Shown: one piece after another, positions 18,358 to 20,145 of the stretch
Layout: the number at the start of each line of letters is the position of its first letter
Numbering within the stretch: the first letter of the stretch is position 1
Source of the DNA: Escherichia coli
GTDB lineage: Bacteria > Pseudomonadota > Gammaproteobacteria > Enterobacterales > Enterobacteriaceae
Length of the DNA: 64,000 nucleotides
Direction: 5' to 3' (one strand)
Assembly: GCF_016903815.1 (NCBI RefSeq)
Contig: NZ_CP069973.1
Notes under the pieces: model-generated
What the model saw: the letters and a program-made list of their open reading frames with translations, nothing else
Databases searched by the model: none
Told to the model about the DNA's origin: nothing
Program-made: the position numbers and the translations under genes

Positions 18358-20145
18358 ATGGCGAAACTGATAAATGTATCGGCGTCCACTGAGGAGAGAA
18401 TGACGTCCGGGGAGAGGAGGGTGGCTTCACGACTGGAGAGCTTTCTGAATGATGATTGCTTTGTCTGGTACGATATCCCGGTGGGACGGAAAAACCGACA
18501 TCCGGATTTTGTCATTATTGACCCGGATAACGGGCTGGTATTTCTGGAGGTCAAGGACTGGACTGTATCCACATTACGTAAAGCAAATCAGGAGCAGGTT
18601 ACACTGGAAACCGACGGTCTTCTGAAATCAGAAATAAATCCGCTGGTACAGGCTCGTCGTTATGCATGTGATACGGTTAATGCCTTACCTGCTGACCCGT
18701 GCTTACGGCAGAATGACGGTCAGTATAAGGGGCGGCTGAACCTGGCCTGGGCGTATGGTGTGGTGTTCACCCGCATTACCCGTCAGCAACTGAAGGCACT
18801 GACAGGGAATGATGAGAATGCGGTGGAAAAGATTTTTCCTTCAGCACAGACAATCTGTCAGGATGAAATGACGCAGTCTGTTTTACCTGAGATATTCCGG
18901 CAAAAAATTGCCGGGATGTTTACCACGGGATTCAGAACCCAGGTGACACCCCGGATGAGAGATATTCTGCGCGCCCATCTGTTTCCTGAAGTGACCGTAA
19001 AACAGAACTCACAAATCAAAATCATGGATATTCAGCAGGAGATTCTGGCCAGAAATATTGGTGACGGGCATCGTGTCATTCATGGTGTGGCCGGCTCCGG
19101 AAAAACCATGATTCTTTTATTCCGTTGCCTTTACCTGGCTGAAACCACGCCCGGAAAGATTCTGGTGCTGTGCTACAACATTACTTTGGCCAGTTATCTG
19201 CGGGAATGCATTGATGTCAGAGGGCTGACGTCACGGGTTACGGTATCTCATTTTCACAGCTGGTGTGCCTCAATGATAAAACGCCACGGTATTCAGGTGA
19301 CGGCTGACAGAAAGGATTACCCGGAGAAATGCTTCAGCACACTGGAAGAGGCTGTGAACAGCGGGAAAATCACCGACGCCGGATATGATGCTGTACTGGT
19401 GGATGAAGGGCATGATTTTGACAGTCGCTGGCTGGCCCTGATTGCCCGTCTGTTTGATAACGCATCCCGTTCACTGCTCCTGATGTACGATGATGCCCAG
19501 TCCATTTATCGGCGGGAGCGGGCTCTGAACTTTTCTCTGGCCAGTGTGGGGATTCAGGCGCAGGGACGCACTTCTGTCCTGCCGGTCAATTATCGTAATC
19601 CGAAACGCATTCTGCACTTTGCTTATGCATTCTCTCGCGAGTATTTTGAAAAACATCAGAACCGTGAAATACCACTTGTTCAGCCACAGGCAGGCGGTGA
19701 AGAGGGTACAGAGCCGGAAATCCTGCATTGTGCTTCTGAACGTGATGAAGCCAGACAGGTTGCAGACTGGCTGGAGAAGTGCCATGCCCTGTGCGGTCAC
19801 TGGAGTGATATGGCTGTGCTGTGTCCGACAGAGCATTCAGCGAAACAATTGCAGGACGTTATGACACAACGCGGGATGCCTTTTGCCACCTGTTTTGACA
19901 GGGAAGGCAAGAAGGCATACTCGCGACGTAAGGATGTGGTGCATTTACTGACATATCAGAGCAGTAAGGGGCTGGAGTTCCCGTATGTGGCGGTTATCAA
20001 TGCGTCTTTCATTCCTTCTGGTGTAGCGGATGAGTCTGAAGTAATCCCGGTGCTTTATGTGGCGTTCACCCGGGCAACCCGTGAATTACTGGTGACCTGT
20101 TACCGTGAAAACAGTATCAGTCGTCACCTTGAGGATTTTGCATAA
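18358..20145 (+). CDS. NERD-domain nuclease fused to SF1 (UvrD-like) helicase
   Basis: N-terminal NERD-like block (...RHPDFVIIDPDNGLVFLEVKDW); Walker A GVAGSGKT; Walker B VLVDEGHDF; C-terminal TYQSSKGLEFPYVAVI. Confidence 0.7.
   Translation: MAKLINVSASTEERMTSGERRVASRLESFLNDDCFVWYDIPVGRKNRHPDFVIIDPDNGLVFLEVKDWTVSTLRKANQEQVTLETDGLLKSEINPLVQARRYACDTVNALPADPCLRQNDGQYKGRLNLAWAYGVVFTRITRQQLKALTGNDENAVEKIFPSAQTICQDEMTQSVLPEIFRQKIAGMFTTGFRTQVTPRMRDILRAHLFPEVTVKQNSQIKIMDIQQEILARNIGDGHRVIHGVAGSGKTMILLFRCLYLAETTPGKILVLCYNITLASYLRECIDVRGLTSRVTVSHFHSWCASMIKRHGIQVTADRKDYPEKCFSTLEEAVNSGKITDAGYDAVLVDEGHDFDSRWLALIARLFDNASRSLLLMYDDAQSIYRRERALNFSLASVGIQAQGRTSVLPVNYRNPKRILHFAYAFSREYFEKHQNREIPLVQPQAGGEEGTEPEILHCASERDEARQVADWLEKCHALCGHWSDMAVLCPTEHSAKQLQDVMTQRGMPFATCFDREGKKAYSRRKDVVHLLTYQSSKGLEFPYVAVINASFIPSGVADESEVIPVLYVAFTRATRELLVTCYRENSISRHLEDFA

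What the first reader, a model, noticed from the sequence alone, without database searches (positions are those of the whole stretch)
18358..20145. Orphan NERD-nuclease / SF1-helicase fusion gene: candidate single-gene anti-phage effector
A 595-aa ORF joins an N-terminal NERD-type nuclease-related domain to a compact UvrD-like SF1 helicase core (GVAGSGKT, VLVDEGHDF, QSSKGLEFPYVAVI). It stands alone in accessory DNA just downstream of an IS911 remnant, with a roughly 390-bp spacer and no obvious operon partner. Nuclease-helicase fusions in islands are a recurring architecture of single-protein defence effectors (Nhi-like by architecture). Family membership is inferred, not verified.
Basis: partly seen in the sequence, partly recalled or inferred. 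Interest (0 to 1): 0.7.

Follow-up and report, generated by a model that had tools for sequence, protein, structure and literature searches.

The report
Stand-alone NERD nuclease–UvrD-like helicase gene
This is an intact E. coli accessory gene that fuses a restriction-enzyme-type nuclease to a stripped-down UvrD-like motor; it belongs to a widespread, already catalogued but never tested family that often sits beside phage-defence genes, so it is a reasonable but unproven single-gene defence candidate.

Summary
Window 18358..20145 (+) is a real 595-aa ORF with an N-terminal NERD domain and a UvrD/Rep-type SF1 core. The nuclease residues (D50, E64-x-K66, Q98xxxY102) and all helicase motifs are intact. 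The core lacks the 1B and 2B accessory domains. An AlphaFold model built on an alignment is confident (pLDDT 93).

The protein matches PADLOC model C3a187 'NERD+UvrD' end to end (E 4e-140). That model comes from a 2018 list of type III CRISPR accessory genes, not from a tested defence system. It is not Nhi or Nhi-like, whose helicase is the DUF2075 type. It is not Gabija, because no GajA is present. It is not a housekeeping UvrD/Rep/PcrA.

No neighbour is conserved across 80 diverse loci, so it works alone. Eight of 26 nearest neighbours are PADLOC defence or candidate genes. In E. coli 55989 the gene directly upstream is PD-Lambda-1-like; in the window an IS911 remnant replaces it.

The gene is in 19% of complete E. 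coli genomes, is often cut by IS elements, and is under purifying selection (dN/dS 0.13-0.20). I found no experimental test of the family, and expression here is uncertain. Verdict: a plausible candidate of moderate interest.

The parts
17995..18266 (+). 3' remnant of IS911: the C-terminal end of the transposase (ORF 18015-18257) plus the right terminal inverted repeat ending at 18266. It replaces whatever lay upstream of the gene.
   Evidence: It is 100% identical to annotated IS911 copies. RefSeq calls it 'integrase core domain-containing protein, missing N-terminus'. Homology to strain 55989 starts exactly at 18267.
18267..18357 (+). The only native 5' flank left (91 nt). It holds a 13-bp hairpin at 18288-18318 followed by a T-run (18326-18335), then the Shine-Dalgarno AAGGTG (18347-18352) 5 nt before the ATG. 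No sigma-70-like promoter was found on this strand.
   Evidence: RNA fold gives -31.3 kcal/mol, z -4.0, with 0 of 200 shuffles folding as well. The terminator-like scan hit a shorter stem here (5 pairs, 18305-18321) that overlaps the 3' arm of this hairpin, and there were no + strand promoter hits in 17200-20600. The flank is conserved in E. coli 55989 but absent from RM11911 and from the plasmid copy.
18358..18768 (+). Codons 1-137: NERD-type PD-(D/E)XK nuclease domain. Catalytic residues are E19, D50 (18505-18507), E64 (18547-18549), K66 (18553-18555) and Q98xxxY102.
   Evidence: Pfam NERD E 2.7e-10 at residues 17-108. D50 is invariant and E19, E64, K66, P95 and Q98 are at least 90% conserved in 72 sequences. 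The AF2 secondary structure has an alpha-beta-beta-beta-alpha-beta order.
18769..19002 (+). Codons 138-215: mostly helical linker/bridge between nuclease and motor. R205 is nearly invariant. No Pfam family matches it.
   Evidence: The AF2 model has pLDDT mostly above 90 here. There is no Pfam hit in this stretch.
19003..20145 (+). Codons 216-595 plus the stop: UvrD/Rep-type SF1A motor without 1B and 2B domains. It carries the Q-motif (Q227), Walker A G243-T250 (K249 at 19102-19104), motif II D349-E350 (19402-19407), motif III Q381, motif IV R413, motif V K537-G538, and motif VI T571-R572.
20211..20487 (+). Frameshifted copy of a small conserved hypothetical gene that follows the helicase gene in chromosomal E. 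coli copies. It is not a conserved partner.
   Evidence: RefSeq marks it 'hypothetical protein, frameshifted'. It is intact in 55989 and has an internal stop in RM11911. It is absent from the plasmid copy and from the 59%-identity relative. It has no PADLOC hit.
20539..23084 (+). Type VI secretion ImpA_N/VasL-family gene reduced to a pseudogene and split by an IS2 copy (transposase about 21115-22343). It is a relic of the T6SS cluster in which the helicase gene sits in other strains.
   Evidence: RefSeq annotation of the identical region. The intact arrangement tssE - x - NERD-helicase - vasL is seen in E. coli 55989, in L005 and in Cedecea neteri.
27428..28252 (-). Context only: the C-terminal fragment of a Shango SngC-like helicase, cut off by an IS3 remnant. 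It shows that this island once carried another defence system.
   Evidence: PADLOC SngC E 1.4e-71, covering profile positions 468-719 of 720. RefSeq annotates it as 'ATP-dependent helicase, missing N-terminus'.

Best explanation
The gene encodes a one-polypeptide, ATP-driven nuclease-helicase that most likely restricts incoming DNA (phage, and possibly plasmid) on its own. The proposed mechanism has three steps. First, the UvrD/Rep-type SF1A motor, stripped of the 1B and 2B accessory domains, loads on single-stranded DNA, free ends or replication intermediates. Second, it translocates 3'->5' using ATP. Third, the strand is presented to the N-terminal Mg2+-dependent PD-(D/E)XK (NERD) nuclease, which cuts it. 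This would make it a minimal, domain-swapped analogue of RecB/AddA, and of the Nhi, Gabija and Hachiman nuclease-plus-helicase defences. SHOWN: the ORF; both domains; intact catalytic residues in both; a confident fold; purifying selection; the absence of any conserved partner; accessory and patchy distribution with frequent IS disruption; frequent defence-gene neighbours. INFERRED: that the substrate is DNA; the polarity; what triggers it; whether it spares the cell or kills it; and the defence phenotype itself. In this particular strain it is stranded cargo in a decayed pheU island. Its native upstream region has been replaced by an IS911 remnant, so it may be poorly expressed or silent.
For: Architecture and active sites:
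- NERD plus UvrD-type domains are found by Pfam.
- The protein matches the NERD+UvrD profile full length, E 4.2e-140.
- D50, the Walker A residues G243, G246, G248 and K249 (S247 and T250 at least 90% conserved), D349-E350, Q381, R413, G538 and T571-R572 are invariant, and E19, E64, K66 and Q98 are at least 90% conserved, in 72 sequences at 27-59% identity.
- The AF2 model has pLDDT 93.4 and pTM 0.90.
- The motor is closest to Rep, UvrD, PcrA and HelD.

Selection:
- dN/dS is 0.13-0.20 between E. coli alleles. By domain it is 0.11-0.19, apart from 0.38 for the NERD+linker half in the window-vs-RM11911 pair.

Stand-alone status:
- No neighbour cluster is shared by more than 7 of about 80 loci.
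- In E. coli the homology block starts at the ATG in several contexts.

Defence context:
- 8 of 26 nearest neighbours in 25 diverse loci have strong PADLOC hits: type IV and type II restriction enzymes, AriB, PDC-S02 (twice), PDC-S05, PDC-S41 and PDC-M05A.
- Only 1 of 10 ORFs lying 7-9 kb away has such a hit.
- In E. coli 55989 the gene directly upstream matches PD-Lambda-1, E 3.7e-88.
- On a Vibrio harveyi conjugative plasmid the gene lies next to an N6 DNA methylase, with an HNH endonuclease about 5.5 kb away.
- A Shango SngC fragment lies 7 kb away in the window.

Distribution:
- The gene is in 1047 of 5426 complete E. coli genomes, and only 612 of those have at least 80% of it.
- It is truncated by IS66 in O157:H7 and split by an IS3-family element in a set of genomes otherwise identical to the window.
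- No full-length homologue is found in 50,697 phage records.

Precedent from the literature:
- NERD is the catalytic nuclease of a stand-alone defence protein, ZwsA.
- A NERD-helicase clusters with UG34 reverse transcriptases.
- 2B-less UvrD-family helicases occur in validated defence systems.
Against: - I found no experiment on this family in the searchable literature.
- The neighbour enrichment rests on a small sample. The near-versus-far contrast is not significant on its own (Fisher one-sided p = 0.20). Five of the eight hits are 'PDC' candidates, not validated systems.
- Several relatives sit among ordinary genes: topoisomerase IV, ETF-QO, UDG, MiaA, an RlmN-like methyltransferase and an FAD monooxygenase.
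- The gene is present at a syntenic position in 112 Ralstonia megaplasmid records, which looks core-like there.
- The immediate neighbours in the window itself have no PADLOC hits apart from a weak PAPS-reductase match.
- No promoter was recognised, and a terminator-like hairpin precedes the start codon.
Confidence: 0.5

Rival explanations
1. It is a DNA repair, recombination or replication-rescue helicase-nuclease that serves the host or the mobile element carrying it. It would be a mini RecB/AddA-like end processor or a fork/flap processor, not an immunity gene.
For: The motor is closest to the repair helicases UvrD, Rep, PcrA and AdnB. The QxxxY motif after the D-ExK triad is, from my own knowledge of RecB/Cas4-type nucleases, typical of end-processing enzymes. 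Some relatives are flanked by housekeeping genes, including UDG and topoisomerase IV. The gene sits at a syntenic position in 112 Ralstonia megaplasmid records. On the E. coli plasmid the gene lies in the same 25-kb stretch as umuDC, SOS-peptidase and ArdA genes.
Against: The gene is patchy in E. coli (19% of genomes) and is repeatedly inactivated by IS elements without apparent cost. Defence genes are frequent immediate neighbours. Scores against every curated repair-helicase model are far below their cut-offs, for example PcrA 67 bits against 911. The 1B and 2B domains of the repair enzymes are missing.
Confidence: 0.25
2. In this strain the gene is inert cargo. It is an intact but unexpressed relic of a decayed island, on its way to becoming a pseudogene, whatever the family does elsewhere.
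For: An IS911 remnant abuts 91 bp upstream, and everything further upstream of the native locus is gone. No + strand promoter-like site was found, and a strong hairpin with a T-run sits between the IS end and the start codon. All surrounding island genes are pseudogenes or IS elements: vasL split by IS2, a frameshifted small ORF, an SngC fragment and a group II intron. Otherwise identical genomes carry an IS3-family insertion at about codon 517.
Against: The ORF is complete, with every catalytic residue intact. Identical intact copies persist in many genomes. The consensus promoter scan is weak evidence of absence, and IS911's right end carries an outward-facing TTGACC hexamer at 18254-18259 (sequence) that could contribute to a hybrid promoter; that last point is my inference.
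Confidence: 0.2
3. It has a role tied to type VI secretion, for example handling DNA damage from, or DNA released by, T6SS attacks. This is suggested by its fixed place inside a T6SS cluster.
For: The gene lies between tssE and the ImpA_N/VasL gene in E. coli 55989, in a 59%-identical relative (L005) and in Cedecea neteri at 65% identity. The window keeps the vasL relic directly downstream. In Ralstonia a gene annotated 'type VI secretion protein' lies 5 kb downstream.
Against: T6SS genes were shared by only 3 of about 80 loci. The gene also occurs on plasmids and in T6SS-free contexts. In 55989 the same gap also holds a PD-Lambda-1-like gene, which points to a cargo-insertion hotspot rather than a functional link. 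Nothing in the protein resembles T6SS effector delivery domains.
Confidence: 0.05

Closest known systems
PADLOC PDLC01087 'C3a187' (NERD+UvrD), from the type III CRISPR accessory-gene survey of Shah et al. 2018 (PMC6546367)
   Same: The match runs end to end (residues 1-594 against profile 1-556 of 559, E 4.2e-140), with the same two-domain architecture.
   Different: The family was defined by adjacency to type III cas cassettes (3 occurrences; example Dole_0738) and has no tested function. There are no cas genes near this copy or near the E. coli relatives examined.
Nhi (Bari et al. 2022) and Nhi-like (Millman et al. 2022)
   Same: A single polypeptide with an N-terminal nuclease and a C-terminal SF1 helicase; a stand-alone defence gene. 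NERD (PF08378) is listed for Nhi-like in a review table.
   Different: Nhi and Nhi-like carry a DUF2075/PF09848 helicase. This protein has a UvrD/Rep-type motor (PF00580, PF13361) and only E 0.023 on PF09848. PADLOC's Nhi profile is not among its 25 best hits, although that profile is in the library.
Gabija (GajA OLD-family nuclease + GajB UvrD-like helicase)
   Different: Here the nuclease is a PD-(D/E)XK/NERD domain fused in cis, not a separate ATPase-TOPRIM protein. No gajA is next to it. The GajB matches are local, in three stretches.
NERD-helicase partner of UG34 reverse transcriptases (PADLOC 'RTasNERD-Hel', Mestre et al. 2022)
   Same: N-terminal NERD plus a C-terminal helicase. Both halves match it weakly (E 1.6e-15 for the whole protein, 2.1e-5 for the N-terminal part).
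   Different: That family is encoded next to a reverse transcriptase. No reverse transcriptase neighbours this gene; the split RT at window 249-1334 is 17 kb away on the other strand, inside the grp locus.
UvrD / Rep / PcrA and HelD (housekeeping SF1A enzymes)
   Different: The protein lacks the 1B and 2B domains, carries an extra N-terminal nuclease, and scores 48-67 bits against curated cut-offs of 419-1144.
RecB / AddA / AdnB helicase-nucleases
   Same: An SF1A motor joined to a PD-(D/E)XK nuclease with a QxxxY motif in one chain.
   Different: In those enzymes the nuclease is C-terminal, the proteins are about 1,100-1,200 aa, and they work in multi-subunit complexes. NCBIfam scores are about 20-30 bits against cut-offs of about 700 or more.

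Membership tests
NERD+UvrD fusion family (PADLOC C3a187) | Full-length match to the family profile | tested here: met
   E 4.2e-140, residues 1-594 against profile 1-556 of 559. Both halves match separately, at 1.4e-39 and 2.6e-95.
NERD+UvrD fusion family (PADLOC C3a187) | NERD domain with a complete PD-(D/E)XK catalytic set | tested here: met
   Pfam NERD E 2.7e-10. E19, D50, E64, K66 and Q98 are present and at least 90% conserved across 72 family members.
NERD+UvrD fusion family (PADLOC C3a187) | Adjacency to type III CRISPR-cas cassettes, which is the basis on which the cluster was named | tested here: not met
   No cas genes appear in the RefSeq annotation of the identical region or in the other E. 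coli contexts. The cluster rested on 3 occurrences.
Nhi / Nhi-like | One polypeptide with an N-terminal nuclease and a C-terminal SF1 helicase | tested here: met
Nhi / Nhi-like | Helicase of the DUF2075 (PF09848) type | tested here: not met
   PF09848 scores E 0.023 (14.4 bits). The UvrD-type families score better: UvrD_C 5.3e-9 and UvrD-helicase 2.5e-7.
Nhi / Nhi-like | Sequence match to an Nhi profile | tested here: not met
   PADLOC Nhi (PDLC02372) is absent from the 25 best hits, all of which have E <= 8.9e-5, and from the hits of the N-terminal half at E <= 10. The model is in the library, since it hit another protein.
Nhi / Nhi-like | Anti-phage phenotype | not testable with these tools
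   This needs expression and a phage challenge.
Gabija | GajB-type UvrD-like helicase | tested here: inconclusive
Gabija | Adjacent GajA (ATPase + TOPRIM OLD-family nuclease) | tested here: not met
   The neighbours are an IS911 remnant and pseudogenes, and no neighbour has a GajA PADLOC hit.
UvrD/Rep/PcrA repair helicases | Score above the curated NCBIfam equivalog cut-off | tested here: not met
   PcrA 67 against 911 bits, Rep 58 against 951, UvrD 48-57 against 965-1144.
UvrD/Rep/PcrA repair helicases | Four-subdomain layout (1A, 1B, 2A, 2B) | tested here: not met
   About 34 and about 15 residues stand where UvrD has its 1B (about 120 aa) and 2B (about 180 aa) domains. The whole motor is about 380 aa.
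HelD/HelR RNA polymerase recycling ATPases | Score above the curated cut-off | tested here: not met
   HelD_BACSU 57.6 against 419 bits, HelR 47 against 750. The similarity is confined to the motor.

The most novel reading that the evidence does not exclude
The NERD + 1B/2B-less UvrD-type fusion may be a distinct, widespread (568 clusters at 50% identity with E <= 1e-30) and so far unvalidated single-protein immunity family. It would be mechanistically separate from Nhi. It would act as a self-contained 'mini-RecB' that recognises and degrades foreign DNA ends or replication intermediates without any partner.
Probability: 0.4. Interest if true: 0.55.

Novelty: new variant of a known kind. Interest (0 to 1): 0.4.

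Why it matters
If it defends, it adds a common one-gene nuclease-helicase system. The family is present in about a fifth of complete E. coli genomes and in many Proteobacteria. It would be a compact model for asking how an SF1A motor without regulatory domains is coupled to a nuclease, and how it tells foreign DNA from self. It would also show that the tssE-vasL gap of the enterobacterial T6SS-1 cluster is a small defence-gene hotspot, since it holds a PD-Lambda-1-like gene plus this one. If it does not defend, it is one more uncharacterised helicase-nuclease in a decayed island. Either way, the gene is already catalogued in PADLOC and named generically in RefSeq. The gain would be functional validation, not discovery of a new kind of system.

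Tried and rejected
1. Single-sequence AlphaFold gave pLDDT 39 and was unusable. It was replaced by an alignment-based model.
2. Nhi/Nhi-like membership was rejected on helicase type and profile score.
3. Gabija was rejected because there is no GajA.
4. A conserved partner gene was sought by clustering all flanking ORFs of about 80 loci; none was shared by more than 7 loci.
5. The small downstream ORF (20211-20487) was considered as a partner or immunity gene. It was rejected because it is frameshifted here, has an internal stop in RM11911, and is absent from the plasmid copy and from the 59%-identity relative.
6. The GIY-YIG/PD-Lambda-1-like gene was considered as an obligate partner. It was rejected because it is present only in the 55989-type context.
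7. A phage origin was rejected: there is no full-length match in phage genomes.
8. A link to the split reverse transcriptase at window 249-1334, in the manner of UG34 plus NERD-helicase, was rejected: it lies 17 kb away on the opposite strand, inside the grp locus.
10. Six literature searches for an experimental test of a NERD+UvrD protein found none.
11. NCBIfam gave no name for most neighbours.
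Full report
OBSERVATION

The window holds a 595-aa ORF at 18358..20145 on the + strand. It contains the quoted motifs GVAGSGKT, VLVDEGHDF and QSSKGLEFPYVAVI.

Pfam finds these domains:
- NERD at residues 17-108 (E 2.7e-10).
- UvrD-helicase/AAA_19 at 226-385.
- UvrD_C/UvrD_C_2 at 407-583.

Upstream, window 17995-18266 is a 3' remnant of IS911. It is 100% identical to annotated IS911 copies and ends with the element's terminal repeat at 18266.

- The IS end is only 91 bp from the ATG. The ~390-bp gap is downstream, at 20146-20538.
- That gap holds a frameshifted small ORF at 20211-20487.
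- RefSeq starts the protein 14 codons later (WP_001564039.1, '3'-5' exonuclease', 581 aa). The first 14 codons and the AAGGTG ribosome-binding site are conserved in relatives at 59-65% identity. Met1 is nearly invariant in a 72-sequence family alignment. So 18358 is the better start.

ANATOMY

An alignment of 72 full-length relatives at 27-59% identity (A1) shows a complete PD-(D/E)XK set in the NERD domain: E19, D50, E64-x-K66, and then Q98xxxY102.

It also shows every SF1 motif:
- Q-motif Q227.
- Walker A G243-x-x-G-S-G-K249-T.
- Motif II D349-E350.
- Motif III Q381.
- Motif IV R413.
- Motif V K537-G538.
- Motif VI T571-R572.

A single-sequence AlphaFold run was useless (pLDDT 39). With A1 the model is confident (pLDDT 93.4, pTM 0.90).

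The model divides into three parts:
- An alpha/beta nuclease domain (about residues 1-137).
- A helical bridge (138-215).
- A motor of about 380 residues.

WHICH FAMILY

PADLOC's best hit is PDLC01087 'C3a187', described as 'NERD+UvrD'. The match is end to end (E 4.2e-140), and both halves match on their own.

That name comes from Shah et al. 2018. It is a cluster of genes found next to type III CRISPR cassettes, with 3 occurrences in the paper's table and example Dole_0738. It is a catalogue entry, not a tested system. No cas genes are near this copy.

The next-best PADLOC hits are local matches to GajB (about 1e-20) and to helicases associated with reverse transcriptases, including 'RTasNERD-Hel' (1.6e-15).

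No NCBIfam model comes near its cut-off; PcrA scores 67 bits against 911.

Nhi and Nhi-like are defined by an N-terminal nuclease plus a DUF2075 (PF09848) helicase. Here PF09848 scores only E 0.023. PADLOC's Nhi profile is absent from the 25 best hits, although it is in the library. So the protein resembles Nhi in layout but is not a member.

The family itself is large. There are 568 clusters at 50% identity with E <= 1e-30, most about 600 aa with the same architecture.

PARTNER OR NOT

I fetched 80 loci from one-genome-per-species contigs, mostly Beta- and Gammaproteobacteria at 35-65% identity. I then clustered every flanking ORF within 7 kb.

No cluster is shared by more than 7 loci. The shared ones are lineage-specific synteny in Rhodanobacter/Dyella and in Bradyrhizobium.

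In E. coli, several contexts share homology only from the ATG onward. The gene is a stand-alone unit.

CONTEXT IN E. COLI

The window is the pheU island. tRNA-Phe is at 46123-46198, with an integrase next to it.

The gene has these surroundings:
- Upstream lie the grp propanediol microcompartment operon (- strand), then a DNA-binding pseudogene, a small hypothetical gene, a DUF4222 gene and the IS911 remnant.
- Downstream lie a T6SS ImpA_N/VasL pseudogene split by IS2, the IbrA/IbrB/PerC genes, a truncated helicase, a group II intron and more IS debris.

In E. coli 55989 the arrangement is intact...tssM-tssA-tssF-tssG-tssJ-tssE - hypothetical - 'GIY-YIG nuclease' - NERD-helicase - small ORF - vasL....

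The same tssE ... vasL position holds for a 59%-identical relative and for Cedecea neteri at 65%.

The 55989 'GIY-YIG' gene matches PADLOC PD-Lambda-1 at E 3.7e-88. PD-Lambda-1 is, from my knowledge of Vassallo et al. 2022, a validated E. coli defence gene. The ancestral layout therefore looks like two defence-type genes inserted in a T6SS cluster. In the window, IS911 has removed the first one.

Seven kb downstream, window 27428-28252 (-) is the C-terminal fragment of a Shango SngC-like helicase (E 1.4e-71).

Other E. coli contexts differ. There is a tRNA-Phe island ending in integrase + TraI + helicase. There is also a 168-kb plasmid where the gene sits beside a RelE/ParE toxin-antitoxin pair and a DUF6710 gene.

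POPULATION PICTURE

- 1047 of 5426 complete E. coli genomes have a match, and 612 have at least 80% of it.
- O157:H7 and related EHEC keep only about codons 1-266, cut by IS66.
- A set of genomes otherwise identical to the window has an IS3-family element inserted at about codon 517.
- Between intact alleles dS is 0.14-0.27 and dN/dS is 0.13-0.20. By domain dN/dS is 0.11-0.19, except 0.38 for the NERD+linker half in the window-vs-RM11911 pair.

This is an accessory gene. It is kept functional where it is intact and is frequently lost.

CONTEXT ELSEWHERE

I scanned 26 nearest-neighbour ORFs from 25 diverse loci. Eight have strong PADLOC hits:
- Type IV restriction enzyme, 5e-112.
- Type II restriction enzyme, 1.6e-16.
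- AriB, 2.7e-19.
- PDC-S02, twice.
- PDC-S05.
- PDC-S41.
- PDC-M05A.

Of 10 control ORFs lying 7-9 kb away in the same loci, one has a strong hit. That hit is SoFic, in the locus that also has the type IV enzyme.

The rate of 8 in 26 is far above a 3-10% background (binomial p 6e-7 to 0.003). The near-versus-far contrast alone is not significant (Fisher p = 0.20). Five of the eight hits are untested 'PDC' candidates.

Against the defence reading, other neighbours are ordinary genes: MiaA, an RlmN-like methyltransferase, an FAD monooxygenase, topoisomerase IV, ETF-QO and UDG. In addition, 112 Ralstonia megaplasmid records carry the gene at a syntenic position, beside a toxin-antitoxin pair and 5 kb from a T6SS gene.

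A Vibrio harveyi conjugative plasmid has it next to an N6 DNA methylase, with an HNH endonuclease about 5.5 kb away. Phage genomes hold no full-length relative.

EXPRESSION HERE

Only 91 nt of native 5' sequence survive (18267-18357). They contain a strong 13-bp hairpin at 18288-18318 followed by a T-run (-31.3 kcal/mol, z -4.0).

The hairpin is conserved in 55989, where it lies downstream of the PD-Lambda-1-like gene. It is probably that gene's terminator.

No + strand sigma-70-like site was found in 17200-20600. Whether the gene is transcribed in this strain is open.

MECHANISM

The best-supported reading is a self-contained nuclease-helicase that restricts foreign DNA. A UvrD/Rep-type motor would move 3'->5' on single-stranded DNA; that polarity follows from established knowledge of SF1A enzymes. 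It would feed or expose DNA to a Mg2+-dependent PD-(D/E)XK nuclease fused in cis.

The protein resembles RecB/AddA with the domain order reversed. It also resembles the Nhi, Gabija and Hachiman logic of pairing a nuclease with a helicase sensor.

Literature precedents:
- NERD is the catalytic nuclease of the stand-alone defence protein ZwsA.
- A NERD-helicase partners with UG34 reverse transcriptases.
- 2B-less UvrD-family helicases occur in validated systems.

Shown: the anatomy, the conserved active sites, purifying selection, the lack of a partner, the accessory distribution and the defence neighbours. Inferred: the substrate, the polarity, the trigger, the outcome for the cell and the phenotype.

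I put this reading at 0.5. The rivals are a repair or recombination enzyme (0.25), inert cargo in this strain (0.2, not exclusive of the others) and a T6SS-linked role (0.05).

NOVELTY AND VERDICT

The gene is already catalogued. PADLOC has a model for it, RefSeq names it generically, and NERD-helicase fusions have been noted since the NERD domain was first described.

What is missing is any functional test; six literature searches found none.

Relative to validated systems it is a new combination of known modules: NERD fused to a minimal UvrD-type motor, acting alone. A specialist would not be surprised by it. It is a sensible, cheap candidate to test. Interest 0.4.

Noticed in passing
L002 (E. 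coli 55989) 10696-11898; the position corresponding to window about 18266, where IS911 now sits: The gene directly upstream of the NERD-helicase in strain 55989 is annotated 'GIY-YIG nuclease family protein'. It matches PADLOC PD-Lambda-1 at E 3.7e-88, over the C-terminal two thirds of the profile. The pair sits in the gap between tssE and vasL, which looks like a small defence-gene hotspot inside the T6SS cluster.
   Followed up: partly
window 27428-28252 (-): This truncated helicase matches the last 250 positions of PADLOC SngC (Shango system) at E 1.4e-71. The rest of the gene, and any SngA/SngB, has been removed by an IS3 remnant and a group II intron insertion.
   Followed up: partly
window 249-728 (-) and 798-1334 (-): Two adjacent ORFs of 160 and 179 aa match the C-terminal and N-terminal halves of reverse transcriptase profiles (generic RT 1.6e-17 and 2.5e-31; UG17, UG19 and Drt9 more weakly). 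Together they look like a split or frameshifted RT lodged between grpO and grpP of the propanediol microcompartment locus.
   Followed up: partly
L002, L005, L007 (gene between tssE and ImpA_N/VasL); L094 (Ralstonia, 'type VI secretion protein' 5 kb downstream): The NERD-helicase keeps the same slot inside a type VI secretion cluster in three enterobacterial lineages at 59-95% identity. In Ralstonia megaplasmids it lies near another T6SS gene. This may be a cargo hotspot or a functional link.
   Followed up: partly
window 18358-18399: RefSeq starts this protein at Met15 (window 18400, 581 aa). The 14 upstream codons, their Shine-Dalgarno sequence and Met1 are conserved across the family, so the annotated start is probably too short.
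   Followed up: yes
window 18288-18335: A strong 13-bp hairpin plus T-run lies between the IS911 end and the start codon (z -4.0). It is conserved with one wobble and one mismatch in strain 55989. It is probably the terminator of the lost upstream gene, and it could block read-through into the helicase gene.
   Followed up: partly
E. coli genomes H44-H59 (O157:H7 and other EHEC) and H1-H13 / L096: There are recurrent independent inactivations. EHEC lineages keep only about codons 1-266, cut by IS66. A set of genomes otherwise identical to the window carries an IS3-family element at about codon 517.
   Followed up: partly
window 24124-25979 (+): A PAPS-reductase-like gene (IbrA) and a ParB-like gene (IbrB) overlap by 16 bp and are followed by a PerC-family regulator. 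This module stays downstream of the helicase gene in all chromosomal E. coli contexts seen. IbrA has weak BrxP (1.2e-7) and DndC (1.8e-4) similarity.
   Followed up: no
window 23276-23983 (+): A 235-aa ORF lies in a sharply AT-rich kilobase (GC 0.37, GC skew +0.34). It has no PADLOC hit and RefSeq annotates it only as hypothetical. It looks like a separate recent acquisition.
   Followed up: no
plasmid records H86-H96 and about 100 more (Ralstonia solanacearum species complex megaplasmids): A 40%-identical family member sits at a syntenic position (about 100-118 kb) in 112 Ralstonia megaplasmid records, next to a toxin/regulator pair. It behaves there like a stable, near-core gene, which fits poorly with a purely mobile defence role.
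   Followed up: partly
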